Of a DNA stretch of 57,594 nucleotides, positions 41,808 through 57,594 are shown piece after piece. Every line of letters starts with the position of its first letter. The stretch's first letter is position 1. Source of the stretch: an uncultured Prolixibacteraceae bacterium (GTDB lineage Bacteria; Bacteroidota; Bacteroidia; Bacteroidales; FEN-979); the NCBI GenBank assembly GCA_964355115.1, contig CAYHCQ010000004.1, positions 1 to 57,594 on the forward strand. Direction: 5' to 3'. The position numbers and the translations under genes were made by a program. The notes below the pieces were generated by a model, which was not told the DNA's origin, did no database searches, and saw only the letters and a program-made list of their open reading frames with translations.

Positions 41808-43148
41808 ATGAAGATACTTCTGATAAATCCTCCCCGGTCGCCGGAAAACAACATACTTAAATTTGCCCCAGAAGATGCCAAACCCTTTATCCATAAGAAA
41901 CTTATCGGTCCGCCACTCGGTTTGCTTACTATTGCTGCCGCGGTAAAGGATCATGAAGTGGTGGTTTTCGACACCAAGGGGGAGTACGACCTCGAGCCAG
42001 CTACACCGCCATTGGCAGAGCTTGTGAGGCTGTTGTTATCCAGACACCAACCCGATGTGGTAGGCGTTACCACGATAACCTCGGAGTTTGACTTTTCGGT
42101 TGAGATCCTCCAGGTAGTTAAACAGACTGACCCGGGTATACTTACCGTTGCGGGCGGACTTCACGCAACCCTTTGTCCGAAGGATTTTACCGATATTTCG
42201 ATCGACATAGTGATCCCCGGACAGTGCCCTCATATTTTCCGCGATGTTATAAATGCCCGGGAGAGAGGGTTGCCCTACAATGCGATTCCCGGGCTTTACC
42301 TGAATGGACCCGGCGGGTTGAAAAAGACAACCGGCGCACCCCGTCACTGGGATTTCACCGATGCCGATTACCTTATGCCCGACCGCAGCCACCTCGCCCG
42401 CTGGATCGACACTTACAAAGTTGGCAACAGTCCTTACCCCAGTACTTATATATATACTTCACTGGGTTGTCCTTACAAATGTACTTTTTGTTCGATCTGG
42501 AGTCAGTTTAAAGGGAAATATTACCAGCGCACAATCGAAAGCCTGATCACGGAACTTAAATCCGTTGATGAATACCCAGTGGTACGCTTCGCCGATGCCA
42601 ACACAGTAGTTGATGAGCAGTTCATGCTCGGACTTTTCCGCCGGATTGAAGAGGAGGGTATCCGCAAGACCTTCATTATGGACATCCGGGCTGATATTGC
42701 TGCAAGCCGGCCGGATATTATTGAAAGACTGGCCAGAGGCGGGTTGAAGGTAGTCATCTGTGGTTTTGAATCCTTCAGGGATGAAGAGCTGAAGCGGTAC
42801 AATAAGGAATCCCCCGCTGCCGATAACCAGACGGCAGTTCAGGTATTTGAGGCGAACGGGATCATGGTGCGTGGCAATTATGTGATCCCGAACGACTATA
42901 CGGATGCAGATTTCAGGGCATTGGCCGAATATTCCGACAGAAACCGGGTGGTATATGCCGGTTATACTGTTTTAACCCCTATGCCGGGAACTGTGTTTCA
43001 TAAGCAGGTAAGAGCTGATATAGTGGACTTTAACTACAGGAAATACAATTTCTTTAACTCTGTAATGAAAACCACGCTTCCTCACGATGAGTTTCATACA
43101 AGGGTAGGGGAGCTCTGGCTGATAAAGAAGGGGAAGGACGTTATTTAA
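41808..43148 (+). CDS. Cobalamin-binding-domain radical SAM protein
   Basis: 446 aa. Motifs: MKILLINPP..., PDVVGVTTITSEF, and 4Fe-4S motif LGCPYKCTFC. Confidence 0.85.
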   Translation: MKILLINPPRSPENNILKFAPEDAKPFIHKKLIGPPLGLLTIAAAVKDHEVVVFDTKGEYDLEPATPPLAELVRLLLSRHQPDVVGVTTITSEFDFSVEILQVVKQTDPGILTVAGGLHATLCPKDFTDISIDIVIPGQCPHIFRDVINARERGLPYNAIPGLYLNGPGGLKKTTGAPRHWDFTDADYLMPDRSHLARWIDTYKVGNSPYPSTYIYTSLGCPYKCTFCSIWSQFKGKYYQRTIESLITELKSVDEYPVVRFADANTVVDEQFMLGLFRRIEEEGIRKTFIMDIRADIAASRPDIIERLARGGLKVVICGFESFRDEELKRYNKESPAADNQTAVQVFEANGIMVRGNYVIPNDYTDADFRALAEYSDRNRVVYAGYTVLTPMPGTVFHKQVRADIVDFNYRKYNFFNSVMKTTLPHDEFHTRVGELWLIKKGKDVI

Positions 43149-43183
43149 TTGATAAATGATAATTGACAATTGACAATGGATAA
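43149..43183. repeat. Tandem heptad repeat (5 units, TTGAYAA type) filling the rSAM-rSAM junction
   Basis: Reads TTGATAA ATGATAA TTGACAA TTGACAA TGGATAA. It starts immediately after the TAA stop (43146-43148) and contains the next ATG (43176). Confidence 0.85.
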
Positions 43184-44618
43184 TAGCCGGTTGAGGAGGG
43201 TGCTTCTGGTGAATACCAATGTGGAGAGGGTGCCGTATCCTGTTCCACCGCTGGGGCTTTGTATGTTGGCTGAAAGCCTGAAGGGGCTGTATGATGTAAG
43301 AATTTACGACGGTGTTTTCGATGAAGGGTGCAACCTGTTATCAGCCGTTGAATCGTTTAATCCGGACTTTATCGGCTTCAGCATCCGCAACATCGATGAT
43401 GTGGTTGCTGACCGTGAAATTTATTATATCGACGGAATCCTAAAACAGTTCATCCGGCCGGTAAAAAGCATCGCCCGGGTGCCTGTTATCCTTGGCGGAA
43501 GCGGTTTCAGCGTATTTCCCGAAGAGTTGATGGAACTAACGGGTGCCGATTACGGCATCGTTGGAGAGGGTGAATACGTTTTTCCATTACTGCTCGAATA
43601 TATCATTGCAGGTAAATCTGTTGCTGATCTCCCCAATGTGATTACCTCATCTGCCCTGGTTGTTCAGAAAGGCGAGCGTTCTTTGACCAGAACAATGGCC
43701 GGATCGGGTTTTTCGGAGATTGACAGAAAGATAGATTTCAATCCCTACCTGGCCAAAGGGGTATATTCCATTCAGACAAAGCGGGGTTGTTCGCATGGTT
43801 GTATCTACTGTACATATCCGGTTATTGAAGGACGGAAATTCCGCACTCGGCAGGCTTCGGAAATCGCTGATGAAATTGAGCAGGTTAATGGGCGGCTCGG
43901 TTACATTACCTTTGAATTTGTCGATTCCACTTTCAACGATCCGCGGGGGCATGCCGAGGCAATATGCAGGGAGATCATCAGCCGGAAATTGAAGGTACGG
44001 CTCCGCACCATGGGAATGAATCCACGTCATTGCAGCGAAGAGCTTTTCGACCTGATGATCAGGGCGGGATTTGTACAGATTGACGCAACACCCGATACCG
44101 CATCTCCGCGGATGTTAAGGAGCCTTGACAAGGGATTCCGGCTTGAAGAGATCCGGACGATGGCCACTTTGATCAGGAAGTTCAACCTTCCCACGATGTG
44201 GTTTTTTCTTTTCGGCGGACCGGGTGAAAATCCTTCCACCTTTAGAGAAACCGTTGATTTCATCCGTGCCTGTGTTAACCCGGAGGATCTTGTATACATG
44301 GCTAGCGGTTTACGGATTTATCCGCAAACGCCGTTATATCGTACAGCCTTGATTGAGGGCATGGTCAGTCCAGGCGAATCCATCCTCTATCCACCAGTAT
44401 ATTATTATTCGAAAGAGATGGGGAAAGAGGACCTGGATGCGTCAATTCAGGAGACCGCCCGTTTGTTGCACAACTGTATTCCGGCCCTTGAAACCTCACC
44501 ATCTCCTGAAATGATAAAGGAAGCCGCCGCCCTAAGGCAGGCAGAAAACCTGACGGAACCGATGTTCAGGACCCTGCTCAGAATCCGTAAAAGATGGCGG
44601 GATGCCGGGTTGGTTTAA
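43176..44618 (+). CDS. Cobalamin-binding-domain radical SAM protein
   Basis: Start set to the ATG at 43176 (MDNSRLRRVLLVNTN...); the track uses a TTG at 43170. Motifs: PDFIGFSIRNID, and 4Fe-4S motif RGCSHGCIYC. Confidence 0.85.
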   Translation: MDNSRLRRVLLVNTNVERVPYPVPPLGLCMLAESLKGLYDVRIYDGVFDEGCNLLSAVESFNPDFIGFSIRNIDDVVADREIYYIDGILKQFIRPVKSIARVPVILGGSGFSVFPEELMELTGADYGIVGEGEYVFPLLLEYIIAGKSVADLPNVITSSALVVQKGERSLTRTMAGSGFSEIDRKIDFNPYLAKGVYSIQTKRGCSHGCIYCTYPVIEGRKFRTRQASEIADEIEQVNGRLGYITFEFVDSTFNDPRGHAEAICREIISRKLKVRLRTMGMNPRHCSEELFDLMIRAGFVQIDATPDTASPRMLRSLDKGFRLEEIRTMATLIRKFNLPTMWFFLFGGPGENPSTFRETVDFIRACVNPEDLVYMASGLRIYPQTPLYRTALIEGMVSPGESILYPPVYYYSKEMGKEDLDASIQETARLLHNCIPALETSPSPEMIKEAAALRQAENLTEPMFRTLLRIRKRWRDAGLV

Positions 44619-45520: not shown

Positions 45521-45534
45521 GGGAGTAAAATGAT

Positions 45535-45843
45535 TTATTTTTCAAGTTCCAGCAGCCGGTTTTCGTGTTCAATGATCAGCAACTGCATATCAATCAGTTC
45601 TCCGATTGTGGCTACAGGATTTTTAACTGCATATTTGCCGATTACCTTCAGCTCAATATTCAGGTTGTATTTTTTCTTGAATATCTCAATCAGTTCCAGG
45701 AACATCAGCGAATCCCCGTCGAGGTCTTTGATGATGTTTGTATTATCGTTTATCTGTGATGTATCGACTTCACACTCCTCAGCAAAAAAACTGTATACCG
45801 TCTCCCTGACCTCGTTCTTTGTATTTTCGGTGATTTTGGCCAT
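45535..45843 (-). CDS. Acyl carrier protein
   Basis: 102 aa. Motif DLDGDSLMFLELIE. Confidence 0.85.
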   Translation of the reverse strand: MAKITENTKNEVRETVYSFFAEECEVDTSQINDNTNIIKDLDGDSLMFLELIEIFKKKYNLNIELKVIGKYAVKNPVATIGELIDMQLLIIEHENRLLELEK

Positions 45844-45875
45844 CTTGTATTGAATTTCTGCAAAAATAATATTTT

Positions 45876-47102: not shown

Positions 47103-47113
47103 TGGAAATTTTC

Positions 47114-47506
47114 CTATTTGTTCAGATTTGCCGACCACCTGCAGATCATATCAACTTCGGCCTTGGTGGGTATGGCATCAGGATTCTTTTTGCGCCAGCT
47201 CTTGGTGGGCATGGCTCCCTTGGTAAGTTCTTTGCACATATCCTTTGCTTTATCAGCTTGCTTTTCGGCCGAATATTCATTCCATTTCGAAAAATTCAGC
47301 TTCATCCGGGCCATCGAACTGCCATCATCGGCATGACAGTCCATGCATGCACGCTGAACCAGCTTCAGCACACTGTCGGGAAGGGCGGTTCCGGGAGCGA
47401 TGGCAGATTTTTCATCCGATCCTCTTGCTTGCCGGGGTGTGAATAGCATAGAGCAGGCAGCGACCGTAAAAATAACAACTGCAGCGATTGTGACTATTTT
47501 TTTCAT
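47114..47506 (-). CDS. Secreted/anchored haem-binding domain protein (CXXCH)
   Basis: Start set at MKKIVTIAAVVIFTVAACS. It has a single c-type haem motif ACMDCHADDGS, about 130 aa, resembling the Haem_bd family. Confidence 0.6.
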   Translation of the reverse strand: MKKIVTIAAVVIFTVAACSMLFTPRQARGSDEKSAIAPGTALPDSVLKLVQRACMDCHADDGSSMARMKLNFSKWNEYSAEKQADKAKDMCKELTKGAMPTKSWRKKNPDAIPTKAEVDMICRWSANLNK

Positions 47507-47557
47507 GATTGTCGTATGTTTATACAAAAATAGTAAAAATAAACTTCAATACCTGAA

Positions 47558-50134
47558 TTAATCAAAGGGTCCTTTTTCGAGTCCGAAATACTCCTTTATT
47601 GCATCATTCATCTCGCCAACAGGCAGGTGGGCGAGTGCGGTATATCGTTTTGATGCATTCAGGTAGGTGAACCTCAGGTGTTCAGCAATTTCGTCAGAAT
47701 TTTCGGGAAGTCTTACCTCTTCATTTTCCAGCGGATAATCGTAGAAGCCAGAATTTGTCTTCATTCCGAGCCTCCCGACTGCGCAAAGCGATTCCAGTTT
47801 CCCGATAAATGGGGTAAAGTATTCGCGATGGGGATAATCTGCTGTATAATTCTCTACGGCAGCCAGCATAGTATCATTCCCTACACTGTCGCAGAAATCA
47901 AATACTCCGAACGGAAAGATCCGCTCCTTTACAACCTGGTCCATCTGTGCAAAGGTGCACCTCCCTTCGGCAACGATTCGGTATGCTTCGTTCTGAAAAT
48001 CAAGGAATAACCGATTCAAAACAAAGCTGTTTGGCTCGTCGAACTCAAGGTACTTTCTTTGAATGGATTCAAGAAACTGGCGGACAAACACTTTGGTAGT
48101 ATCAGACGTGGAGGATGTAGTTGTAAATTCCACGATGTTTTTCAATTGTACCGGGTAGAAAAAGTGCAACCCGACAAATTTTTCACGACGGGCCGAGGCA
48201 GGGGAGAGGAGAGAGGGATGAATGGAGGAGGAGTTTGATGCGAAGATGCAATCTCCGTGAACAAGTGTGTCAAGCTCCGAAAAGAGTTTCTTCTTCAGTT
48301 CAGGGCTTTCCGGGATTGCTTCTATAACCAGGTTGCAATCTGCAAGCGATTCAGGATCAGATGATATTACAGTCTGCCCGAGGATGTCAAACGCCTCTCT
48401 TTCGATAATGCCTGCATCCAAGGAGCGGTTGATCTTTCTTTTGACCTGCTTCATCATTTTATCCGGGTCAGCAGCCGGACTCACCAGCCAAACCAGTTTA
48501 AAACCGAAACCCACAAGGTAGTAGAAGATGCTTGTGCCCATCTTGCCTTCGCCGATGATGCCAATGGTAAGGATGCAGGATGCAGGATGCAGGATGCTAA
48601 CTGATAATTTTTTCCAGGGACCTTTATCCTGGCCCATAACCAGTTTCCGGTATTCATCCATATTCTTTTGGTGCTCTCTGATATGCCGGTTGTAGCCAAG
48701 CATGGAGAGCATGAACCCGAGCCCTTTGTCGATGGCGATCTGTTTTGTGCGGATGAGCCGCATGATGAATGAGAATAATTTTTTCCTCTCCGGATCGCGG
48801 GTAAGCACAAACTCTTTAAAGGTGATCCATGATAGCCGTGCTTTCATCAAGGGAGAGATATCTCCTCCGGGACGGGTGAATGCCCCGTTGATGAAGAGGG
48901 CCTCTGCTTTTTTCCGGATCGTGTCGAAGGAGTATAGCCTGGCGATCGTCTCCATGTAACCGTCGAACAGGTCGATCTGCGACATGTTCATGTAGTGAAC
49001 TGTAGGGAAGTGGCCAACACCCAGTTCCGGATCACAATAGGTAAGCCGGCCCTCGTCCCTGAATTTCCTGTGGACCTCTGTTCCCGGCGGGGCATTCAGC
49101 AGGTGAAGATTTACATGCGGAAGGTTATATTTCAGGGTGAAGTCAAAGATCCGGTCAAACTCCTCGAGGGTGTCGTTATCGAATCCGACGACAAAACTTG
49201 CGTTGATATGAATTCCGGCAGCATGGATTTTACGGATTGCCTCCTCATAGATTGATCCGCCCCGGTTATGATGTTTCTGCGATTCGTCAAGGCTCGCAGG
49301 GTTCAGCGATTCAAATCCGACAAGGATGTTGAAGCAGCCTGCATCGGCCATCAGTTTAAGCAGTTCATCGTCGGTGGCAACATCCAGACTGCACATGCAT
49401 CCCCAGGAGATTTTGAGGGGAATGATCGCCCGCATCAGCTCTTTAGCGTACTTTTTATTAATGGTAAGGTTATCGTCGACAAAAAAGAAATATTTCGAGG
49501 GTGCGGCTTTTATCTCTTCAACAACATTTACAATCTCGCGGTAACGCATCTTGCGGCCGAAATTCTTCGAAACCAGGCAGAAATCGCAGTTGAACGGACA
49601 CCCCCGGGAAACCTGGATGGCAACCTGGAAGATTCGTTTCATGTTTACCAGGTCCCAGCGCGGTGGCTTCTGCGTTTTGTATTCCACGTAACCTTCCGAT
49701 TCATAAACCGGTTTCATGCAGCCATTTTCAAAATCTGCCAGACACTTTTCCCATTTGCCTTCCGCTTCGCCCGCAACCACAGAATCTCCGTGCTTCAGCG
49801 CCTCCTCCTGCTGGAACGTCGCATAAGGTCCGCCGAAAACAACTTTCACCCCCATAGCACGATACCGGTCACCAAGTGCAAACGCACGTTTGGCAGTAGC
49901 AGCCAGCGTAGTGATACCAACAATATCGGGACGGATATTCCGCGGAATCTCTTCGATCTCCTCATCGTAAATACGGATGTCGTAGTGGTCCGGCGTCAGC
50001 GCTGCAATGGTAGGCAGAGCCAGTGGCACCATCAGCCTGCGCTTTCCGAACATCTTCGCCATCTCGCTGTGAGCAGGATAGTTAACAAATTTTTGCCGCG
50101 GCGAAAGCAGAAATAATATGTATCTATTTTTCAC
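47558..50134 (-). CDS. Fusion protein: cobalamin-binding-domain radical SAM (N-terminal) + 3-hydroxyacyl-CoA dehydrogenase (C-terminal)
   Basis: 858 aa with a GTG start. The rSAM part has PDIVGITTLAATA and SRGCPFNCDFC. The HADH part has IGIIGEGKMG, VIEAIPESPELKKKLF, ASNSSSI, GLHFFYPV and SFVLNRL. The junction lies at about 48571-48598. Confidence 0.85.
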   Translation of the reverse strand: MKNRYILFLLSPRQKFVNYPAHSEMAKMFGKRRLMVPLALPTIAALTPDHYDIRIYDEEIEEIPRNIRPDIVGITTLAATAKRAFALGDRYRAMGVKVVFGGPYATFQQEEALKHGDSVVAGEAEGKWEKCLADFENGCMKPVYESEGYVEYKTQKPPRWDLVNMKRIFQVAIQVSRGCPFNCDFCLVSKNFGRKMRYREIVNVVEEIKAAPSKYFFFVDDNLTINKKYAKELMRAIIPLKISWGCMCSLDVATDDELLKLMADAGCFNILVGFESLNPASLDESQKHHNRGGSIYEEAIRKIHAAGIHINASFVVGFDNDTLEEFDRIFDFTLKYNLPHVNLHLLNAPPGTEVHRKFRDEGRLTYCDPELGVGHFPTVHYMNMSQIDLFDGYMETIARLYSFDTIRKKAEALFINGAFTRPGGDISPLMKARLSWITFKEFVLTRDPERKKLFSFIMRLIRTKQIAIDKGLGFMLSMLGYNRHIREHQKNMDEYRKLVMGQDKGPWKKLSVSILHPASCILTIGIIGEGKMGTSIFYYLVGFGFKLVWLVSPAADPDKMMKQVKRKINRSLDAGIIEREAFDILGQTVISSDPESLADCNLVIEAIPESPELKKKLFSELDTLVHGDCIFASNSSSIHPSLLSPASARREKFVGLHFFYPVQLKNIVEFTTTSSTSDTTKVFVRQFLESIQRKYLEFDEPNSFVLNRLFLDFQNEAYRIVAEGRCTFAQMDQVVKERIFPFGVFDFCDSVGNDTMLAAVENYTADYPHREYFTPFIGKLESLCAVGRLGMKTNSGFYDYPLENEEVRLPENSDEIAEHLRFTYLNASKRYTALAHLPVGEMNDAIKEYFGLEKGPFD
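48571..48598. repeat. In-frame tandem heptad repeat (GGATGCA x3 + GGATGCT) at the rSAM/HADH domain junction
   Basis: Read directly: ggatgca ggatgca ggatgca ggatgct. On the coding strand it translates as SILHPASCIL, immediately before the HADH Rossmann motif TIGIIGEGKMG. Confidence 0.9.
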
Positions 50135-50172
50135 TTTTCACTCTTAACTCTTAACTCTTCACTTTTCACTCA
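50131..50172. repeat. Tandem heptad repeat (6 units, T[CA]ACT[CT]T type) spanning the KASIII / rSAM-HADH junction
   Basis: Reads tcacttt tcactct taactct taactct tcacttt tcactca. It covers the GTG start (50132-50134), the 24-nt spacer and the TGA stop (50159-50161). Confidence 0.85.
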
Positions 50173-51268
50173 GCACATATCCGGCTTGCATGAATTTACT
50201 TACCTCCGTTACAAAACTGAGTACAATATCACCGGGCTGAAGTACCTCTTCATGCATGATTTTATCGAGGCAGAGCAGGGCCATAGGCGGACCGATATAG
50301 CCCATCGTTGCCATCTTTGAATAAAGCGTTTCGCGCGGGATGCCAAGTTCGGTGCACTCGTCCATCACCAGTTCTGAAATATGCTTCGATGGAAAATTGA
50401 CCTGGAAATACCTGAGTTTGCTGAAATCCACGGGATGAAGTGCAACCATCCGCTTCAAACCATTAAGGAAGACAGAGCCATCGGGTTCATGAAAGTTGGC
50501 TCTCAGTTCCTCCTGGAACATCTGGGCCAGGTGATGATAACCCTTTTCAAACTCCTCCTTCGGGTTCATCCAGTAGGCCGGGCGTTTGTTGCCCATGGCA
50601 GAGGGCTTGTTGCCCCCGGTGGATTCGATGTAGGCATAATCTACGAACAGCCCTTTTCCCTCATCTCCGGCTGCCTGCAGAACCAGGGCGGCCGCTCCAT
50701 CGCTGAGGAAATAGCGGAGAAAAAGTTCTTCCTTAGTCACCAGCGCCTGGTTGTAGTATTCGGCAACCAATTCGGAGGATGACATGCTTGAGGAGATCAC
50801 AAGGGCTTTTTTATACCGCCCGGAACGGATCATGTCCGAGGCGATCATAAGCGCTTTATAAGCCGATGTGCAGTTGGCATGCACCGAAATTTCGGCACAG
50901 CGTTCGATTCCCAACCCTTCCTGGATGCGGACTGAGGCGGTAGGCATCTGGTCCTGGTGGGCGCTGCCGTAAACGATCAGGTCGATCTCCGACGGCTTCA
51001 TCCCTGCATCAGCAAGTGCAACCTGAGCGGCCTTCACCGACATTGTTACATTGTCCTCAGTAAATTGTCGTGTAACCGGATCCAGGGCAAAATGGTAGAA
51101 CTCCACTTCAAGGAGTTCGGCCATAAGAATTTTTATCCTTTTCAGCCATTTTTGGATCTTATCAGGGGCGTTCGTTAACTCCCCGAGGTAGTAATCCACA
51201 TCTGCTGCCGGGATGGCTTTGCCGGGTAAAAACGATCCGCTTCCTGCAATTTTCACACTGGCCATCAT
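50159..51268 (-). CDS. KASIII (FabH)-like thiolase-fold enzyme, atypical
   Basis: 369 aa. FabH-like N-terminus (VKIAGSGSFLPGK) and Cys context SVHANCTSAYKAL. The region aligning to FabH GNTSAAS reads GYIGPPM (eye alignment only). Confidence 0.7.
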   Translation of the reverse strand: MMASVKIAGSGSFLPGKAIPAADVDYYLGELTNAPDKIQKWLKRIKILMAELLEVEFYHFALDPVTRQFTEDNVTMSVKAAQVALADAGMKPSEIDLIVYGSAHQDQMPTASVRIQEGLGIERCAEISVHANCTSAYKALMIASDMIRSGRYKKALVISSSMSSSELVAEYYNQALVTKEELFLRYFLSDGAAALVLQAAGDEGKGLFVDYAYIESTGGNKPSAMGNKRPAYWMNPKEEFEKGYHHLAQMFQEELRANFHEPDGSVFLNGLKRMVALHPVDFSKLRYFQVNFPSKHISELVMDECTELGIPRETLYSKMATMGYIGPPMALLCLDKIMHEEVLQPGDIVLSFVTEVSKFMQAGYVLSEK

Positions 51269-51951
51269 GCAAAATATTTTTTAATGTACAAGGCTGTTTT
51301 CTCCTTGTGAAAATCGGCAATAACCGACTTTGCAAATTTGATGGCAGATTTCACGACTTCCCTTTTGGGCAATATCTTCTGAACAAATTTCATTTCAAGC
51401 GCTTCAGCCGCCGAAAATGTATTTGCCTTCAGCACCAGTTCAAGTGCGCGGCTGCGGCCGATAAGGGCCGACATTTTTACTATCCCTCCAAGGCCCGGCA
51501 CCAGGTTAAAAGAGGTTTCCGGAAGGCCGAAAACGGCATCTTCGCCACAAAACCTGAAATGGCTGAAGAGGGTAAGTTCCAGTGCCGATCCAAGGCATAC
51601 ACCCCGGATGGCTGAGATTACCGGTATTTCAAACCGGTCCAGTTTCAGGAAGGTCTCATAATTTGCAGTGAGAACAGCTGGCACCCCGGTAACTACTCCA
51701 TTGGCCACCACAGAACCCGACCTGATCTCCTCCAGAAGTGCCGGAAGTCCGGCTCCGGATGAAAAATGGCGGCCGTGTCCGCTGATAACAAGAGCCATGA
51801 ATGCAGGGTTGTTCCCGATCAATTCCACAGCCTCCCTAAACTCCCTGAAGAATTCCAGGGTCATGCTGTTCGACGGCGGCTGATTAAGCACCAGCTGGCC
51901 GATACCATCAGATAAGCTCAGATCGAAGGTCGTAAAGCCGGGGAGGGTCAT
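51265..51951 (-). CDS. Enoyl-CoA hydratase/isomerase (crotonase) family protein
   Basis: 228 aa. Crotonase oxyanion-type segments GHGRHFSSGAG and AIRGVCLGSALEL. It has 4-nt overlaps on both sides. Confidence 0.8.
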   Translation of the reverse strand: MTLPGFTTFDLSLSDGIGQLVLNQPPSNSMTLEFFREFREAVELIGNNPAFMALVISGHGRHFSSGAGLPALLEEIRSGSVVANGVVTGVPAVLTANYETFLKLDRFEIPVISAIRGVCLGSALELTLFSHFRFCGEDAVFGLPETSFNLVPGLGGIVKMSALIGRSRALELVLKANTFSAAEALEMKFVQKILPKREVVKSAIKFAKSVIADFHKEKTALYIKKYFA

Positions 51952-52694
51952 AGGCCTTTGTTGCGTTGTGATTCTGCCAGAGCAAGTTCGCAGAAGAGTC
52001 TAGTCTCCTCCTTCATTGCCTCTTCGGCCGGTAGTGTCCGGGCATTGCGCAGCGCCTTCATCACGGCATGTATTACAGGCAGAGGACGGTCCAGGGTCAT
52101 TTTCTGCAACAGCGAAAAGGAAAAGTCGAATAGTTTTGCCCTGGGCACGATATAATCTACAAGTTTCATCTCCAGCGCATCCTCTGCATTTATCATATCG
52201 CCGGCCATGATCATCTTTAGCGAATTCTGAAATCCGGCAAGTTCGGTAGCCCTCACAGTACCGCCCAGACCGGGAAGGATGCCATGGTTGATCTCAGGAA
52301 AGGCAAAGAGCGAATTTTCGGTACAGACCCTGATGTGAGAGGCAAGAGCGATCTCTAGTCCACCGCCGAAACAGATGCCCTGGATCGCGGAAACTACAGG
52401 TATATTAAGGTTCTCCAGGTGGCTTAATACAGCTTTTCCACCTTCCATTTTCGCTGCAAGATCCTCCTTCTCCCTGATCATTTTAAAGAGATTTTCCAGC
52501 TTTCCCCCACCCGAAAAATGCTTTCCGGCGCCACAAATCAATATTCCCTTCAGGTAGTCGTAGGAGGTCCACTTCCGGATCACTTCCAGCGGAAGGAACT
52601 CAGGATTTTCCAGATAATTCTCCGGCGGGTTGTCGAGAGTAATGATCCCGATGTCCTTGCGAATTTCCCAGCTTATCTTATCACTTTTTTCCAT
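51948..52694 (-). CDS. Enoyl-CoA hydratase/isomerase (crotonase) family protein
   Basis: 248 aa. Motifs GAGKHFSGGG, AIQGICFGGGLEIAL and FPEINHGILPGLGGT. Confidence 0.85.
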   Translation of the reverse strand: MEKSDKISWEIRKDIGIITLDNPPENYLENPEFLPLEVIRKWTSYDYLKGILICGAGKHFSGGGKLENLFKMIREKEDLAAKMEGGKAVLSHLENLNIPVVSAIQGICFGGGLEIALASHIRVCTENSLFAFPEINHGILPGLGGTVRATELAGFQNSLKMIMAGDMINAEDALEMKLVDYIVPRAKLFDFSFSLLQKMTLDRPLPVIHAVMKALRNARTLPAEEAMKEETRLFCELALAESQRNKGL

Positions 52695-52722
52695 AAATCT
52701 GCTTCCTACTTAATATTGCCTG

Positions 52723-53106
52723 TCAGTTGAGGATATTCATCTCGGCAGGGACATCACACGGCATCCGTGAGGTGTCTACGAACACTGTTTTAACTGTTGC
52801 CCTTGCTGCCGGCAAACCGGTTGTTTTGTTGAACAGCTTCTGTTCAAAAACCAGGTACGGGGCCGACCGTTTTGTCCGGGTAACCACCTCGATCTCGTCG
52901 AACAGCCTTATTTCGCGCTGGTAGCGTATATGAACATCCACCACAACGAGAAACAGACCGTTTTGGGTAAAAAACTCAAGCAGTCCGGCATCCCTGAACA
53001 ACTCCCAGCGTGCCTGTTCAATGTAGTTCAGGTAGACCGCGTTGTTGACGTGTCCGTATGAGTCGAGCTCATTCCCGCGGGCCGTTATTTTACTCCGATG
53101 AATCAT
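52723..53106 (-). CDS. Hotdog-fold acyl-CoA/ACP thioesterase (4HBT/YbgC-like)
   Basis: Start set at MIHRSKITARGNELDSYGHVNNAVYLNYIEQARW, which overlaps the upstream stop as ATGA. Confidence 0.8.
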   Translation of the reverse strand: MIHRSKITARGNELDSYGHVNNAVYLNYIEQARWELFRDAGLLEFFTQNGLFLVVVDVHIRYQREIRLFDEIEVVTRTKRSAPYLVFEQKLFNKTTGLPAARATVKTVFVDTSRMPCDVPAEMNILN

Positions 53107-53498
53107 TCGGCGACCAATTTTCCCTTGAATTTCAGAAATGTTGTGTCGTTCGCCGAAAGGGTTGCCTGAACGGAGTAACACCCTTCTTCCGGCTGCTTTA
53201 CAACCAGGTCGAGGGTGATCCCGGGGTATTCCAGCGGGCTGATCATAGACAAAAACTTTATGTTATCCGATTCAGTCAGCTTCAGTTTTTTTCCCGTTAT
53301 TGAATTCAGGGCCTCCACGATCATCTGGACCTGGCACACGCCGGGAACCACCGGGTTTCCGGGGAAATGTCCGCCGAAGATGGGATGACCGGGATCCAGC
53401 ACAAGTCCGGCAGTGTAATGCTTCAACACCACTCCCTGCGGATTGATTTCGTCGCGACCGTCGAGGGTTTTAATAGTATAAAACGTATTTAGTAACAT
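53103..53498 (-). CDS. FabZ/FabA-like 3-hydroxyacyl-ACP dehydratase
   Basis: Start set at the internal ATG (MLLNTFYTIK...). Catalytic motif HPIFGGHFPGNPVVPGVCQVQM. Confidence 0.85.
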   Translation of the reverse strand: MLLNTFYTIKTLDGRDEINPQGVVLKHYTAGLVLDPGHPIFGGHFPGNPVVPGVCQVQMIVEALNSITGKKLKLTESDNIKFLSMISPLEYPGITLDLVVKQPEEGCYSVQATLSANDTTFLKFKGKLVAE

Positions 53499-53569
53499 GA
53501 TTAAATTTTCACCTGTCAGATTAACCGTCAAAAATACAAAATGTAAAGGAATACCGGGTTGCCTAATTG

Positions 53570-54202
53570 CTATTGGCTGATCCACCCGAGTTTAATGATC
53601 AGACCTATCCCCGGATTGTAGAGGCGGATTTTCTGGACGAAGGTGCCTGTGGGATATTCAAATTCGATGCGGTATTTGTCCCAGGGATTGGTTCCCCCGG
53701 CGATTTCGGTCACATAACTGGTTTTCGGGTCAATGTAATAATAGCAGTTGCTTTTGCTCACATAAAGTACCGGTGCGCCGTTTTTTTTATCGGTAAACTG
53801 CACCAGATCATCTGTTGAAAAACTGTAAAACATCAGCGCCCGGAGATCTGCCTCAATGATTTTCAGGAGCGCTTTTTTTTGCATCGGGGTAAAAATGTAG
53901 TGGGAGATAAACCTGCCTCGCAAAAACTCCACATCGAAGATCGTCATCCCGATGTCGTTGGCAAAAACAATCCGGTATGAGGTATCTGCACTTTTTTTGA
54001 TCATTGTATAGCCGGTGAGATGAAATTCCCGGATGTCCATGGTTGTACGGAAGAGTGATTTTTCGAACATCCCCATGAATGGCGATTCCCACGACGACCT
54101 GGCAAGAGTTGCATTATTTCCTCTTAACAGGGTGCTTTTGTCGACCGGGGAGCAGCCCCACAGCAACGCCAGGAGAAGACTAAGGAATAAGGAACTTCTC
54201 AT
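53570..54202 (-). CDS. Lipoprotein of unknown function (position equivalent to the small lipoprotein of aryl-polyene clusters)
   Basis: 210 aa with lipobox LLLALLWGCS. No catalytic motif was seen. Confidence 0.55.
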   Translation of the reverse strand: MRSSLFLSLLLALLWGCSPVDKSTLLRGNNATLARSSWESPFMGMFEKSLFRTTMDIREFHLTGYTMIKKSADTSYRIVFANDIGMTIFDVEFLRGRFISHYIFTPMQKKALLKIIEADLRALMFYSFSTDDLVQFTDKKNGAPVLYVSKSNCYYYIDPKTSYVTEIAGGTNPWDKYRIEFEYPTGTFVQKIRLYNPGIGLIIKLGWISQ

Positions 54203-54824
54203 CAGCGATGGGTTGGTTGATTTTTTTTGCCCTGAACTCGATCCGGGTATAGTCGCCTGAGGCTTCGCGCATCACAAGCCTTTCAACGGAGTAGTCGTTT
54301 TTGTTGAAATAGAGGATTATTTCGCTCAGCGACTCCCTGATTTTTGAATTCTGAGGGATGAGTTTGACAGCATACCAGCTCCTTGCATCGGAATAACTGG
54401 CCTGGAATTTTTTTGGGTCCGCCAGCAGTGTTCCCTGCACCGCCCCGAGGATGATACCATTGATCTCCCGGAAAATCTTGTTCGACTGAACATTCACCTG
54501 TTTTTCTGTATTGTCGTCCTTCACCAGCATCTGCTCGCTGTTGATGACGATGAGGTAGGGGAAAGGCTCGGTATACTCCCAGCGTAGCTTTTTCTCTTTT
54601 TTAAAGTAGAATTTGCCTTTCGATGTGATCTTCTCCGACAGTACGCTCATCTCTTTCTCCTGAACGAAGTCACTTTCGATGGTGTTTGTCCGTTTGGCCG
54701 TCTCCTGCACCTTCTGCCTGATCATCTCTGCCTCTTTCGGAGGAATCTGCTGCTGTTGCTGGGCCATGCCTGCAAAGCATAGCAAGATCATCAGCAAAAA
54801 GGGAAATAGTGTTTTGTTATTCAT
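54180..54824 (-). CDS. LolA-like outer-membrane lipoprotein carrier family protein
   Basis: 214 aa with a signal peptide. The pattern SDFVQEKEMSVLSEKITSKGKFYFKKEKKLRWEYTEPFPYLIVINSEQMLV is typical of LolA-like proteins. Confidence 0.65.
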   Translation of the reverse strand: MNNKTLFPFLLMILLCFAGMAQQQQQIPPKEAEMIRQKVQETAKRTNTIESDFVQEKEMSVLSEKITSKGKFYFKKEKKLRWEYTEPFPYLIVINSEQMLVKDDNTEKQVNVQSNKIFREINGIILGAVQGTLLADPKKFQASYSDARSWYAVKLIPQNSKIRESLSEIILYFNKNDYSVERLVMREASGDYTRIEFRAKKINQPIADEKFLIP

Positions 54825-55632
54825 ACGCCGGCAAATTTACCAGTTTTTCCAATGGTACAACCTCCAGTCCCTGCTGACGGATGCTGATGAGCACCCGGTC
54901 GAGAATTTCCGCCGTCACCCGCTGCGTATCGTGCATCAGGATGATATCACCGGACTTAAGTTTGTCGGTGATGCGAAGGTATAGCCGCTCCGGATCGCTG
55001 ATGGCTGTATCAAGCGACCATCGGCTCCAGGCGATGACCGCGTAACCTGTTCTCCGCAATCCGCCACTCACCATGGGGTTGATAACGCCATACGGCGGAC
55101 GGAAGAATTTAACATTTTTCCCGGTAACCGACCGGATCAATGATTCGGTTTTCAGCAGGTCGCGGTGAATCAGGAATGGCGGCCAGAAATCCCACAGTTT
55201 AGTATGGGAATAGGAATGGTTGCCCAGGATATGTCCTTCGGCATTGATTCTCTTTATCAGCTCTTCATTTCCGGGTATTTTACGGCCGATCAGGAAGAAT
55301 GTGGCAGGAACGCCGTGTTTTCTGAGCACTTCGAGGATCGCCGGGGTAGTGTCAGGGTCGGGACCATCGTCGAAAGTGATGGAAATATTTTTGTCATCCC
55401 TGCTGCCCCGGCATATCACAGGATGGTGAAACTGCGAACAGGGCATGAACGAGAGAATTACCGGAACGATGAGGTAGGTCAATACCAGCGGGATATAAAA
55501 CCATGCCTGATATTTAAAGAAAAAGCCGGTTATCCCACCTTCACAGGGGCAGATTAGAAATCTTACCAGGTTGAACGTAAGTAAAATCAGGAAAAAGAGG
55601 AGGGTGGCCGTCCTGAAATTTACTCTTTTCAT
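54817..55632 (-). CDS. Polysaccharide deacetylase (NodB homology domain) with N-terminal TM segments
   Basis: 271 aa. NodB motifs ISITFDDGPDPD, GNHSYSH, FFRPPYG and ILMHD. Confidence 0.85.
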   Translation of the reverse strand: MKRVNFRTATLLFFLILLTFNLVRFLICPCEGGITGFFFKYQAWFYIPLVLTYLIVPVILSFMPCSQFHHPVICRGSRDDKNISITFDDGPDPDTTPAILEVLRKHGVPATFFLIGRKIPGNEELIKRINAEGHILGNHSYSHTKLWDFWPPFLIHRDLLKTESLIRSVTGKNVKFFRPPYGVINPMVSGGLRRTGYAVIAWSRWSLDTAISDPERLYLRITDKLKSGDIILMHDTQRVTAEILDRVLISIRQQGLEVVPLEKLVNLPAYE

Positions 55633-56726
55633 ACAGTGCCTGTGAGTGTAAAGGTATGTTCCAGGTTGCGGTAATGGTTCCAGATCAGGATATTTTTTAA
55701 AGGTCTGATGAATGATCCGCGGTAACGAGCCATTTCAGGAACCAGGGCATGGCGGAAGATCATGGAGGCCAGCCAGAGTGCAAAAATACCGGATGTGTGG
55801 AATTCACCGGAAAGATGCTTGAAGGCTGCGATATCTGAACCCTGAGGCAGGGTATCCATTGCTTCATGGTAAATTATATCACCTGATGGATCGCCGTTCA
55901 CTCCGAGGATGAAAAGATCGATATCGTTTACCGACAGACAATTGGCTTCAAGAAAACAGGTGATCTTGTGTAGGATCTCTTCCTTCCCGTTCGGTTTGTA
56001 TAGGGTGGTTACATCCCTGAGTGAGGCGATGGAGTGATCTGTTTTGCTTTCGGACAGCAGGAAAAATCCGGCACCTTCGCCGGCAATACTACCTCTGGTC
56101 GTATCTGCGTAAAGATCAGTAATCCCTGATGGATTCTTTTTCCAGTGGCCCAGACGCTGGGTAATGCGGAAAGCATTCGCAGTGAGTTCGTCCATTCCGC
56201 CAGCCAGAACGGTCCTTGCTTCGCCCGAACGGAGCCGGATCAATGAATCGATGAGGGCAGTCTCAAATGAAAATCCACGGTGACAATAGGTAAAGTTATA
56301 TGCGTGGCATTTGAGCAGCAGGGCAATCTGGCCGCTCACCGTGTTGTGTGTCGACTGGATAAACGAGGTAGGGGTGAGGAGTTCTTCGTTGTTTCGGATG
56401 AGCGTGGCCAGGAATTTCTCGGTATCCTCGAGGCAGCTCATCCCGGTGCCAGTTATGATTGCATCCGGCAATTCATACCCTGCATCCAGCATCCTGCAAC
56501 CTGCATCTTCAAGACAGATCTTCGCCGCCGAAATCCCCATCTTGATGATACGGCTCATCCGGCGAACCATGTCGCCTGCCACATAATCCTTATAATTGGG
56601 CTCCTGGATCTTGAAAAACTCGGGACCGGGAGGTACGATCTCATCCGGAAAACGTGAACTGTCGAGCGTTTTCTGCGCCGAAACCAGGCCGAGACCGTTG
56701 ATATATGCAGGTTTTTGTGAAATCAA
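55629..56726 (-). CDS. Beta-ketoacyl synthase-like protein lacking the active-site Cys context (chain-length-factor-like partner)
   Basis: 365 aa, thiolase-fold-like (INGLGLVSAQ..., ...ITGTGMSCLED...). There are no TACSSS, HGTGT or GHT motifs. The start is TTG, with an in-frame TAA 3 codons upstream. Confidence 0.65.
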   Translation of the reverse strand: MISQKPAYINGLGLVSAQKTLDSSRFPDEIVPPGPEFFKIQEPNYKDYVAGDMVRRMSRIIKMGISAAKICLEDAGCRMLDAGYELPDAIITGTGMSCLEDTEKFLATLIRNNEELLTPTSFIQSTHNTVSGQIALLLKCHAYNFTYCHRGFSFETALIDSLIRLRSGEARTVLAGGMDELTANAFRITQRLGHWKKNPSGITDLYADTTRGSIAGEGAGFFLLSESKTDHSIASLRDVTTLYKPNGKEEILHKITCFLEANCLSVNDIDLFILGVNGDPSGDIIYHEAMDTLPQGSDIAAFKHLSGEFHTSGIFALWLASMIFRHALVPEMARYRGSFIRPLKNILIWNHYRNLEHTFTLTGTV

Positions 56727-56743
56727 GACTATTTACGATTGAG

Positions 56744-56841
56744 TTGATAATTGATAATTGATAATTGACAATTGATAATGGACAATTGACAGTTGATAAT
56801 TAATTAACTCTTGACTCTTGACTCTTCACTTTTAACTCTTC
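56744..56841. repeat. 98-nt tract with strict 7-nt periodicity (9 TTGAYAA-type units then 5 ACTYTTN units) in the KS / CLF-like junction
   Basis: Reads ttgataa x3, ttgacaa, ttgataa, tggacaa, ttgacag, ttgataa, ttaatta, actcttg x2, actcttc, actttta, actcttc. The last units overlap the KS stop codon (56832-56834). Confidence 0.9.
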
Positions 56842-57594
56842 AAAATTATCGTCGAATTGTTGCCTCCAAACCCAAAAGAATTAGAGAGAACTGTATCAAC
56901 CGGCATCCGGAGCAACCCGGTCACCGGCCGGATATTCAGTTCCTTCATAGGAGTTGTCCAGTTCAGGTTGGGGAAGAGGCAGCTGTTCTGCATCGAGAGC
57001 AGAGAAATCACCGCCTCGATTGCCCCCGCTGCGCCCAGTGTATGACCTGTAAAAGCTTTGGTGGAGCTGAATGGGGGGACATTTTCCCCGAAAACCTTCT
57101 CGATGGCAACCCCTTCCGAGAGGTCATTGTTTTGCGTCCCGGTCCCGTGAACATTGATATAGCTGATCTGATCACACCTTAACCCGCTCATGGCCAAGGC
57201 TGCCTGCATGGCCAGTGTGGCCCCGGTCCCTTCGGGTGAAGAGGCGGTCTGGTGATAGGCATCGTTGGCGTTTCCGGAGCCGATAAGTTCGGCCAGCGGT
57301 TGTTTCCCGCTTTTTTCGATCATCTCCTCCGATTCCAGCACAACAAAGGCGGCTCCTTCGCCGATGGTAAGTCCGGCCCGATTTTCGTCGAACGGTTTAC
57401 AGCCTTCGCGGTCAAGTATCATAAGAGTATTAAAACCGTTGACAGTGAACCTGGTGGCAGAGTCTGTTCCGCCTGCAACCACACGGTCGATCATCCCGGC
57501 TTTGATCATCTGGGCCCCCAGCATCATGGCATTGGCCGATGAACTGCAGGCGGTGCTGATCGTGGTCATGAAATCCCTGATCCCTGTGTAGTCG
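56832..57594 (-). CDS. Beta-ketoacyl-ACP synthase (Cys-His-His), 5' end beyond window
   Basis: The frame stays open upstream of the track Met (my reading: ...DYTGIRDFMTTISTACSSS...). Motifs TACSSS, NVHGTGTQNND and TGHTLGAAG. Confidence 0.9.
   Translation of the reverse strand, partial: DYTGIRDFMTTISTACSSSANAMMLGAQMIKAGMIDRVVAGGTDSATRFTVNGFNTLMILDREGCKPFDENRAGLTIGEGAAFVVLESEEMIEKSGKQPLAELIGSGNANDAYHQTASSPEGTGATLAMQAALAMSGLRCDQISYINVHGTGTQNNDLSEGVAIEKVFGENVPPFSSTKAFTGHTLGAAGAIEAVISLLSMQNSCLFPNLNWTTPMKELNIRPVTGLLRMPVDTVLSNSFGFGGNNSTIILKS

What the first reader, a model, noticed from the sequence alone, without database searches (positions are those of the whole stretch)
56744..56841. 98-nt intergenic tract with perfect 7-nt periodicity between the two KS-family genes
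Fourteen consecutive heptads fall into two sub-families: TTGAYAA-type x9 (56744-56806), then ACTYTTN x5 (56807-56841). They fill nearly the whole 105-nt spacer between the KS stop and the TTG start of its Cys-less partner, genes that are usually translationally coupled. The same two heptad families recur at 43149-43183 and 50131-50172. The TTGAYAATTG units generate repeated CAATTG/TAATTG half-palindromes, so this could be an array of protein-binding sites, an unstructured A/U-rich translational leader on the minus-strand mRNA, or a slippage-prone spacer. I know of no described element with this form.
Basis: seen in the sequence. Interest (0 to 1): 0.7.

Follow-up and report, generated by a model that had tools for sequence, protein, structure and literature searches.

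The report
Heptanucleotide microsatellite arrays at gene junctions
The 98-base tract is a real tandem repeat of 7-base units that has pushed apart two normally abutting lipid-synthesis genes in an uncultured Bacteroidota bacterium. It belongs to a kind of repeat already described in Bacteroidetes, cyanobacteria and giant sulfur bacteria, so it is a good example rather than a new element.

Summary
Fourteen in-register heptads lie at 56744-56841: nine of TTGAYAA type, then five of ACTYTTN type. They run from the last codons of the ketosynthase (KS) to 17 nt before the TTG start of its Cys-less partner (CLF). The same two unit families recur at 43146-43187 and 50130-50171. An independent assembly carries the identical array, so it is not an artefact.

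It is not a new kind of element. The window is a whole contig of a Bacteroidota MAG. Orthologous clusters at 77% and 73% identity have a 10-nt spacer or overlapping genes and no array. Most of about 75 orthologous junctions are tight, and the enlarged ones mostly hold other short-unit tandem arrays. (TTGAYAA)3 occurs in at least 120 contigs of other species, mainly Bacteroidota and Cyanobacteria, none of them carrying KS/CLF. This matches published heptanucleotide simple-sequence repeats (Mrázek's LSSRs, cyanobacterial heptanucleotide repeats, MacGregor's TAACTGA repeats).

The most likely origin is replication slippage on short proto-repeats at gene ends. The arrays are tolerated because they read as A/U-rich, weakly folded intercistronic RNA in a phylum that initiates translation without Shine-Dalgarno sequences. 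A specific regulatory role is not shown. A fourth array at 48570-48597 fuses two genes in frame.

The parts
56744..56806 (.). Sub-array 1: nine heptads of TTGAYAA type on the + strand (UUAUCAA/UUGUCAA on the minus-strand mRNA). The last unit, TTAATTA, is degenerate.
   Evidence: TRF; heptad print-out; pattern statistics.
56807..56841 (.). Sub-array 2: five heptads of ACTYTTN type on the + strand (RAGTNAA on the mRNA). It encodes the last codons and the stop of KS.
   Evidence: TRF.
56832..57594 (-). 3' part of the ketosynthase (KS) gene, cut by the contig end. Its stop codon TAA at 56832-56834 lies inside the array.
   Evidence: Pfam ketoacyl-synt and Ketoacyl-synt_C; sequence.
55629..56726 (-). 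Cys-less KS partner (chain-length-factor-like), with its TTG start at 56724-56726.
   Evidence: Pfam. Homologues are named 'beta-ketoacyl synthase chain length factor' or 'N-terminal-like domain-containing protein'. The N-terminus aligns with orthologue starts.
56727..56743 (-). Unique 17-nt stretch between the array and the CLF start codon.
   Evidence: Sequence.
50130..50171 (.). Six heptads, RAGTKAA on the mRNA strand. They span the last codons and TGA stop (50159-50161) of the KAS III-like gene, the 24-nt spacer, and the GTG start (50134) of the radical-SAM/dehydrogenase gene.
   Evidence: Proto-repeat present in orthologues.
43146..43187 (.). Six heptads of TTGAYAA type, here in the sense orientation on the + strand mRNA. 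They run from the TAA stop of radical-SAM gene 41808-43148 across the probable ATG start (43176) of the next radical-SAM gene.
   Evidence: Pfam.
48570..48597 (.). Four perfect heptads: AGGATGC on the + strand, GCATCCT on the mRNA. They sit at the boundary between the radical-SAM part and the 3-hydroxyacyl-CoA-dehydrogenase part of ORF 47558-50134 and fuse the two in frame. These are two overlapping genes in the orthologues.
   Evidence: gene tables; Pfam.

Best explanation
The tract is a composite heptanucleotide simple-sequence repeat: a 'long SSR' of the kind common in Bacteroidota and Cyanobacteria.

**Origin (well supported).** The arrays grew in place, by replication slippage on short proto-repeats at gene ends, after this lineage split from relatives with about 77% identical proteins. 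This turned a tight or overlapping KS/CLF junction into a 105-nt spacer. Three other junctions of the same cluster were affected in the same way.

**Consequence (inferred).** On the minus-strand mRNA the array is a 28% GC, nearly structure-free stretch. It separates termination of KS from initiation of CLF at a TTG codon. Bacteroidota ribosomes ignore Shine-Dalgarno sequences, and their initiation is tuned by low mRNA structure and upstream adenines. Such a spacer is therefore tolerated and can serve as an independent ribosome entry region. Expression of the downstream gene would then depend on spacer length and composition, not on a specific motif.

**Not shown.** Nothing here demonstrates a dedicated sequence-specific function, whether a protein operator or a riboregulator.
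For: 1. The tract is a tandem, indel-free array of period 7, far beyond chance.
2. It is lineage-specific. L001 (77% CLF identity) has a 10-nt spacer and L002 (73%) a 1-nt overlap, with the same gene order and no array. Most of about 75 orthologous junctions span -16 to +8 nt.
3. Seeds are visible. The KAS III C-terminus 'L/M-S-E/Q-K-stop' already reads GAGTGAAAAGTGAAGTGA in L002 and GAGTCAAAAGTAA in L001. The window has six such units there.
4. Enlarged KS-CLF spacers in other lineages hold different short-unit arrays. Examples are L016 with TTTACGA, TTTGAGT and TTTGACT, L026/L028 with ACAGTGA-like units, L035 with (AAACCYG)x10 abutting the ATG, and L037/L043 versus L041 with 3.2 versus 2.1 copies of a 16-nt unit.
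5. The unit is not cluster-specific. Several genomes were hit on more than one contig. None carries KS/CLF.
6. In those 836 kb, period 7 dominates: 367 arrays against at most 104 for any other period, in 135 unit families that include TAACTGA.
7. The arrays show no contextual preference. 96 of 110 are intergenic. Of these, 68 lie between co-directional genes (42 sense, 26 antisense), 17 between convergent genes and 11 between divergent genes.
8. The RNA is weakly folded. MFE is -10.5 kcal/mol per 105 nt, z = -0.7 against shuffles. The contig mean is -22.5 +/- 6.3, and only 1.6% of windows fold as weakly. GC is 28%, like other intergenic spacers of the contig at 18-44%.
9. Literature. PMC4679880 summarises Mrázek 2007: heptanucleotide repeats are the most abundant long-SSR class, and polymerase slippage was proposed as their source. 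The same paper describes Bacteroidetes intergenic regions with mixed heptamer repeats that are absent in close relatives. PMC4692102 also covers the class. PMC6847099 shows SD-less initiation tuned by mRNA structure in Bacteroidetes.
Against: - Local slippage does not explain why the same unit families recur at separate loci, in other species, and once as the same composite (L163).
- All four junction arrays lie in the right-hand 14.5 kb of the contig. That is 4 of about 17 junctions there against 0 of about 28 elsewhere, a mild clustering.
- No unit-number polymorphism was seen directly. L006 is identical to the window. The only length variant has a 132-nt spacer in a strain with 93% identical CLF, and its DNA could not be read.
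- The rest of this genome was not available, so a genome-wide scatter in this particular organism is inferred from other genomes.
- The translational consequence is untested.
Confidence: 0.7

Rival explanations
1. The array is a selected RNA-level cis-regulatory leader. It would be a multivalent binding platform on the mRNA for a general single-strand RNA binder (ribosomal protein S1, a cold-shock protein or a CsrA-like protein). This would set the translation rate of the downstream cistron and so the KS:CLF ratio. MacGregor proposed this for TAACTGA repeats.
For: - All three A/T-rich arrays end 0-17 nt from, or run across, the downstream start codon.
- A is at -3 for two of the three starts (read), and the RNA is weakly folded.
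- The enlarged spacer persists in a strain with 93% identical CLF.
- PMC4679880 puts forward the same idea.
Against: - TTGAYAA is antisense on the mRNA at 56744 but sense at 43146.
- Across genomes the split is 42 sense to 26 antisense, and 28 arrays lie in convergent or divergent regions.
- Unit sequences at the same junction differ completely between lineages.
- Close orthologues function without any spacer.
Confidence: 0.18
2. The array is a DNA-level set of protein-binding sites: CAATTG/TAATTG half-palindromes acting as operators for a cluster regulator or a nucleoid protein.
For: - TTGACAA units create CAATTG palindromes.
- The + strand folds better than its shuffles, z = -2.8.
Against: - The arrays sit between co-transcribed genes, not at promoters.
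- Contiguous 7-bp units are out of helical phase.
- The proposed HTH ORF 24616-25050 hits no Pfam family.
- The array is absent from orthologous clusters.
- The same unit occurs in unrelated contexts and phyla.
Confidence: 0.04
3. The array is a promoter array. (TTGAYAA)n gives TTGAYA-N17-GAYAAT at every unit. That matches the sigma-70 -35/-10 consensus at 9-10 of 12 positions, or 11 of 12 when a TTGACAA unit supplies the -35. It would drive a + strand transcript antisense to KS, or sense into the gene starting at 43176.
For: The promoter scan lists six such matches inside the arrays, two of them at 10 of 12. There is a slight excess of sense orientation across genomes, 42 to 26.
Against: - The match follows automatically from the unit and the period.
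- From my own knowledge, the primary sigma factor of Bacteroidota recognises TTTG / TAnnTTTG rather than TTGACA / TATAAT, and the array does not contain that motif.
- At 43146 the predicted transcription start would fall after the ATG.
- TTGAYAA is only one of more than 135 heptad families in those loci.
Confidence: 0.04
4. The tract is an assembly artefact or a collapsed repeat.
For: A Logan contig breaks inside the array. Short-read assemblers often mis-size tandem repeats.
Against: An independent ENA assembly of another sample gives the identical 105-nt spacer. The unit variants make the array resolvable by ordinary reads.
Confidence: 0.02

Closest known systems
Long simple sequence repeats with 5-11-nt units, especially heptanucleotides (Mrázek, Guo & Shah 2007, as summarised in PMC4679880 and PMC4692102)
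   Same: Tandem, head-to-tail, intergenic, period 7. Lineage-specific, with length differences between relatives. Slippage is the proposed source.
   Different: The units TTGAYAA and ACTYTTN in a Bacteroidota lipid-pigment-type cluster are not, to my knowledge, individually described. Here they sit at intra-operon junctions that are normally translationally coupled.
TAACTGA heptamer direct repeats of Beggiatoaceae, Cyanobacteria and some Bacteroidetes (MacGregor 2015, PMC4679880)
   Same: Heptamer arrays lie just upstream of start codons, often mixed with other heptamer families. In Gramella and Aequorivita the closest relatives have the same gene neighbourhood but short intergenic regions without repeats. 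The phylum distribution is the same: Bacteroidota, Cyanobacteria and a Parabeggiatoa hit.
   Different: The unit sequence differs. In the BOGUAY genome most repeats are in forward orientation to the start codon, whereas TTGAYAA occurs here in both orientations relative to transcription.
Cyanobacterial STRR (short tandemly repeated repetitive) heptanucleotide sequences (three tandem heptanucleotides of Calothrix PCC 7601, cited in PMC4692102; STRR unit sequences recalled from memory)
   Same: Several heptanucleotide families per genome, tandem, mostly intergenic, recurring at many loci.
   Different: Different phylum and different units. STRR membership is defined by the specific unit sequences, which do not match.
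G-rich heptameric GGGAATC / GGGGAYT repeats of Xanthomonas and Nostoc (PMC4692102)
   Same: [quoted passage not shown]
   Different: Those are G-rich and form quadruplexes. The arrays here are A/T-rich with no G-runs.
Phase-variable contingency SSRs (e.g. Moraxella uspA2 AGAT repeats in a 5' UTR; Haemophilus loci)
   Same: Copy number of an SSR between promoter or upstream gene and a start codon can tune expression. The in-frame (GCATCCT)x4 at 48570-48597 could switch a fusion on or off by one-unit changes.
   Different: No polymorphism was demonstrated here. The main arrays are not in a promoter spacer or an ORF. The organism is an environmental MAG, not a host-adapted pathogen.

Membership tests
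Heptanucleotide long SSR (LSSR) | Head-to-tail copies of a 1-11-nt unit, longer than expected by chance in that sequence | tested here: met
   TRF scores 81, 47, 50 and 56. Self-match hits occur only at period 7. 14 matches against 2.7 expected and 9 against 1.2 expected, with 0 of 100 shuffles reaching either.
Heptanucleotide long SSR (LSSR) | Predominantly non-coding location | tested here: met
   The three A/T-rich arrays lie in intergenic spacers and touch only the terminal codons. 96 of 110 arrays of the same unit in other genomes are intergenic.
Heptanucleotide long SSR (LSSR) | Presence/absence and length variation between related genomes at an otherwise conserved locus | tested here: met
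   Absent from the 77% and 73% orthologues. Spacer of 132 nt against 105 nt in a 93% relative, DNA not seen. Identical in L006. L037/L043 against L041 differ by one 16-nt unit at the same junction.
Heptanucleotide long SSR (LSSR) | Many arrays scattered over the genome of the host | not testable with these tools
   Only this one contig of the MAG is available, and exact-protein look-ups found no further contigs. Other genomes with the unit are hit on several contigs and carry on average 3 heptad arrays per locus of up to 8 kb.
TAACTGA repeat system (MacGregor 2015) | Unit sequence TAACTGA | tested here: not met
   The units are TTGAYAA and ACTYTTN. TAACTGA arrays were seen only in other loci of the survey.
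TAACTGA repeat system (MacGregor 2015) | Forward orientation within a few nucleotides upstream of a start codon | tested here: inconclusive
   The distance criterion is met at 0-17 nt. The orientation of TTGAYAA is opposite at the two loci.
Cyanobacterial STRR | One of the defined STRR heptamer units in a (heterocystous) cyanobacterium | tested here: not met
   The host is Bacteroidota by its best protein hits. The units differ from the STRR units, which I recall from memory.
Operator / iteron-type binding-site array | Repeats in helical phase at a promoter or origin, with a cognate DNA-binding protein encoded nearby | tested here: not met
   The 7-bp units are contiguous and lie inside an operon. 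The candidate 'HTH' ORF has no Pfam hit. The array is absent in orthologous clusters.
Known structured RNA family (Rfam) | Match to an Rfam covariance model at its gathering score | tested here: not met
   0 matches in the whole window. The mRNA-strand fold is no better than shuffles, z = -0.7.
Phase-variable contingency locus | SSR whose unit-number changes switch a gene on or off, with polymorphism in populations | tested here: inconclusive
   The geometry fits only the in-frame (GCATCCT)x4 at 48570-48597. No population data could be read.

The most novel reading that the evidence does not exclude
Heptad arrays such as (TTGAYAA)n/(ACTYTTN)n may not be passive slippage products. They could be a shared, sequence-defined repertoire that spreads between loci, and perhaps between Bacteroidota, Cyanobacteria and Beggiatoaceae. 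In these lineages, which use Shine-Dalgarno sequences little or not at all, the arrays would act as modular intercistronic 'landing pads'. Unit number would tune the stoichiometry of operon products, here KS against CLF. In coding form, unit number would make or break gene fusions, as at 48570-48597.

Three observations keep this open: the same two families recur at separate loci, the identical composite occurs in an unrelated rumen Bacteroidaceae MAG (L163), and the KS-CLF junction has been colonised repeatedly in different lineages.
Probability: 0.12. Interest if true: 0.65.

Novelty: new member of a known kind. Interest (0 to 1): 0.3.

Why it matters
It shows how a simple mutational process can remodel operon architecture. 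A KS/CLF pair that is almost always translationally coupled is here separated by 105 nt of repeat, and a neighbouring pair of genes is fused by another heptad array. The function and spread of heptanucleotide repeats in Bacteroidota and Cyanobacteria remain unresolved. This locus has repeat-free orthologues and lies in an SD-independent phylum, so it could serve as a natural test case for whether such arrays tune downstream translation. For annotation, it warns that these tracts break assemblies and shift predicted starts and stops.

Tried and rejected
- **Rfam.** A scan of the whole window found nothing.
- **More of the same genome.** Exact-protein look-ups with CLF, P0001, the KAS III-like protein and radical-SAM 41808-43148 found no record.
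- **The 132-nt spacer variant.** Its DNA (GCA_041447075.1 / JGI 3300059473) could not be fetched because the sample file is too large. Unit-number polymorphism at this locus stays unproven.
- **Anammox ladderane cluster.** I considered this first, from the B12 radical-SAM genes plus fabF-like genes. I dropped it because all named homologues are Bacteroidetes or Bacteroidales and the gene set is of flexirubin/aryl-polyene type: LolA, polysaccharide deacetylase, ApeI-like, MMPL, glycosyltransferase with DUF2062.
- **Promoter scan.** The sigma-70-like matches inside the arrays are a by-product of unit and period.
- **Terminators.** No terminator-like site lies next to any array.
- **Stable RNA hairpin.** mRNA-strand z-scores are -0.7, -0.8 and +1.4. 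Only the 43130-43210 context reaches -1.9, and that comes from its G/C-rich flanks.
- **HTH regulator at 24616-25050.** No Pfam family at E<=1e-5.
- **General pairing of the two families.** ACTYTTN next to TTGAYAA was found in only one other locus, L163.
- **Distance-to-start statistics across genomes.** I did not use these. My simple ORF caller is biased by the start and stop codons that the units themselves contain.

Full report
**1. The observation**

The tract is real and periodic.
- Tandem Repeats Finder reports 56744-56801 (unit TTGATAA, 8.3 copies) and 56807-56840 (ACTCTTG, 4.9 copies), both without indels.
- Cut into sevens from 56744, the 98 nt read as 14 units in one register. Six are exact TTGAYAA, three are variants (TGGACAA, TTGACAG, TTAATTA), and five are ACTYTTN.
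- A self-match scan over periods 3-12 finds strong regions only at period 7.
- Two-unit patterns of either family are far above dinucleotide-shuffle expectation. TTGAYAA pairs match 14 times against 2.7 expected, and RAGTNAA pairs 9 times against 1.2. No shuffle in 100 reaches either count, and all matches but one lie in the named arrays.

The tract is not an artefact. An independent ENA assembly from another sample (L006) carries the identical 105-nt spacer. A Logan contig (L005) ends inside the array, as repeats often cause.

**2. Context**

The window is an entire NCBI contig, since protein P0001 is 100% identical and sits on a contig of 57,594 bp. The named homologues of its CLF are from Bacteroidetes or Bacteroidales MAGs. 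The genes form a flexirubin/aryl-polyene-like lipid cluster with extra B12 radical-SAM enzymes. It includes:
- KS and Cys-less KS partners
- polysaccharide deacetylase and LolA
- FabA/ApeI-like dehydratase and thioesterases
- two enoyl-CoA hydratases and a KAS III-like enzyme
- an MMPL/acyltransferase/methyltransferase giant, and a glycosyltransferase with DUF2062

The junction geometry is as follows.
- On the minus strand, KS ends ...NSTIILKS-TAA, with the stop at 56832-56834 inside sub-array 2.
- The partner gene starts at TTG 56726, the only possible start upstream of the conserved AYINGLG strand. The spacer is 105 nt.
- The 50130 array covers the last codons (SEK-TGA) of the KAS III-like gene, a 24-nt spacer, and the GTG start of the next gene.
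- The 43146 array runs from the TAA stop of one radical-SAM gene across the probable ATG (43176) of the next, on the + strand.
- TTGAYAA is therefore antisense on the mRNA at 56744 and sense at 43146.

**3. Comparison with relatives**

The closest orthologous clusters have the same gene order but no array.
- L001 (77% CLF identity) has a 10-nt KS-CLF spacer and L002 (73%) a 1-nt overlap.
- Across about 75 orthologous junctions from metagenomes, the estimated spacing is mostly -16 to +8 nt. This confirms that tight coupling is the rule.
- A strain whose CLF is 93% identical has a 132-nt spacer, but its DNA could not be read.

The exceptions among the orthologous junctions are informative.
- Most enlarged spacers contain other A/T-rich tandem arrays, mainly heptads.
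- L016 has TTTACGA, TTTGAGT and TTTGACT.
- L026 and L028 have ACAGTGA-like units.
- L033, L049 and L051 have TAGAGAA-like units.
- L035 has (AAACCYG)x10 abutting the ATG.
- L064 has an 8-9-nt CGCAAAG unit.
- L037 and L043 differ from L041 by one copy of a 16-nt unit.

Seeds for expansion are visible in the orthologues. The KAS III C-terminus already reads GAGTGAAAAGTGAAGTGA in L002 and GAGTCAAAAGTAA in L001. The window has six such units at that position.

**4. Distribution of the unit**

- By record title these are 63 Bacteroidota, 24 Cyanobacteria, 13 Clostridia and other Bacillota, 6 Patescibacteria, 4 Planctomycetota, one Candidatus Parabeggiatoa and 9 others. Several genomes were hit on two or three contigs.
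- A uniform-composition expectation for the whole collection is about 2 hits. For uniformly 35% GC DNA it would be a few tens. Both are my own calculation.
- None of these loci encodes a KS or CLF relative.
- In their 836 kb, period-7 arrays dominate: 367 against at most 104 for any other period. They fall into 135 unit families that include TAACTGA.
- Of 110 classifiable TTGAYAA arrays, 96 are intergenic. Sixty-eight lie between co-directional genes (42 sense, 26 antisense on the mRNA), 17 between convergent genes and 11 between divergent genes. This looks like the usual mix of intergenic region types, which I know from general experience and did not measure here.
- One rumen Bacteroidaceae MAG (L163) has the same composite, (TTGAYAA)x7 followed by (ACTYTTN)x5, in the same order and orientation and an unrelated context.

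**5. Physical properties**

- The mRNA strand of the 105-nt spacer is 28% GC and folds to only -10.5 kcal/mol, z = -0.7 against shuffles.
- 105-nt windows along the same strand of the contig average -22.5 +/- 6.3 kcal/mol, and only 1.6% fold as weakly.
- The 50130 region is even less structured than its shuffles, z = +1.4.
- Other intergenic spacers of the contig are also A/T-rich (18-44% GC) but not periodic.
- No Rfam family matches anywhere in the window.
- The sigma-70-like promoter hits inside the arrays (TTGATA-N17-GATAAT) follow automatically from the unit and the period.

**6. What it is and how it most likely works**

The anatomy, the lineage-specific presence, the visible seeds, the variety of units at the same junction and the phylum distribution all match the known class of heptanucleotide long simple-sequence repeats.

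Two papers cover the class.
- *PMC4679880*:
  - It summarises Mrázek et al. 2007: heptanucleotide repeats are the most abundant class in most repeat-rich genomes, and polymerase slippage was proposed as the cause.
  - It describes TAACTGA and 'other heptamer direct repeats' in Bacteroidetes intergenic regions.
  - Close relatives there keep the gene neighbourhood but lack the repeats.
  - Cyanothece strains differ by indels in 7-nt steps.
- *PMC4692102*: it reports heptameric intergenic SSRs with extensive length variation in Xanthomonas and Nostoc, and cites the three tandem heptanucleotides of Calothrix.

*Shown.* The tract is a tandem heptad SSR, acquired after divergence from the 77% relatives and not specific to the cluster.

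*Inferred.* It grew by slippage. It uncouples KS termination from CLF initiation. It is tolerated, and may even serve as an entry region, because Bacteroidetes mRNAs lack SD sequences and initiation is tuned by low structure and upstream adenines (PMC6847099).

*Not shown.* Any specific binding factor or regulatory switch.

**7. Rivals**

- **Selected RNA leader for S1, Csp or CsrA-like proteins.** This is possible. It is weakened by the opposite orientations of TTGAYAA in the window and by the context-blind distribution of arrays across genomes.
- **Operator array.** Unlikely, given the intra-operon position, the 7-bp contiguous period, the lack of an identifiable regulator and the absence from orthologues.
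- **Promoter array.** A by-product of unit and period.
- **Artefact.** Excluded by L006.

**8. Novelty and score**

This is a new instance, with new unit sequences and a new context, of a known kind of element. Three points are of some interest:
- the repeated, independent colonisation of a normally coupled KS/CLF junction by different arrays;
- the parallel between the TTGAYAA distribution and that reported for TAACTGA;
- a fourth array that fuses two genes.

The open problem, also left open in the literature, is why the same units recur at many loci and across phyla. Interest 0.3.

Noticed in passing
window 48570-48597 (ORF 47558-50134, minus strand): Four perfect heptads, (AGGATGC)x4 on the + strand and GCATCCT on the mRNA, lie exactly where the B12 radical-SAM gene and the 3-hydroxyacyl-CoA dehydrogenase gene overlap as two genes in orthologues L001 and L002. 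Here the array encodes the linker LSVSILHPASCILT and fuses both into one 858-aa ORF. The dehydrogenase part has no start codon of its own. Gain or loss of one unit would break the fusion.
   Followed up: partly
window 56479-56507; L001 10216-10247; L010 3218-3245; L013, L017, L021-L023: A 7-periodic stretch (GATGCAG-like, about 4 units) inside the CLF coding region sits at the same position in orthologues down to about 53% identity. It encodes ...EDAGCRMLDAG..., so it is a coding feature and not an inserted SSR. Its unit is the reverse complement of the 48570 array's mRNA-strand unit.
   Followed up: partly
L163 1026-1161 (rumen Bacteroidaceae MAG Tb.RUG.95): The same composite as in the window, (TTGAYAA)x7 then (ACTYTTN)x5, in the same order and orientation with other heptads in between. 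It lies upstream of a 1209-aa ORF and just before a TATATTTG motif that resembles the Bacteroides -7 promoter element.
   Followed up: partly
L035 1933-2005: (AAACCYG)x10.4 directly abuts the ATG of the CLF orthologue in another lineage. No KS was detected upstream in that locus.
   Followed up: no
L037/L043 2927-2978 and 251-302 versus L041 1765-1798: Related metagenome contigs differ at the KS-CLF junction by one copy of a perfect 16-nt unit (AAAATTTGAAAATTGA), 3.2 against 2.1 copies. This is a direct example of unit-number variation at this junction.
   Followed up: partly
window 43146-43187 and 56744-56806: Both TTGAYAA arrays have the same chromosomal orientation although the flanking genes are on opposite strands. 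MacGregor noted a similar chromosome-wide orientation bias in Microcystis. This hints at a replication-linked rather than transcription-linked origin, but rests on only two arrays.
   Followed up: no
It sits between a BtrH_N/DUF4872 gene and an ABC-2 transporter gene. L001 likewise has a family-less 131-aa ORF (392-787) next to BtrH_N/DUF4872 genes.
   Followed up: partly
window 1-43000 versus 43000-57594: All four junction arrays lie in the right-hand 14.5 kb, about 4 of 17 junctions there against 0 of 28 elsewhere. The hypergeometric p is about 0.016 by my own calculation. The cause is unknown.
   Followed up: no
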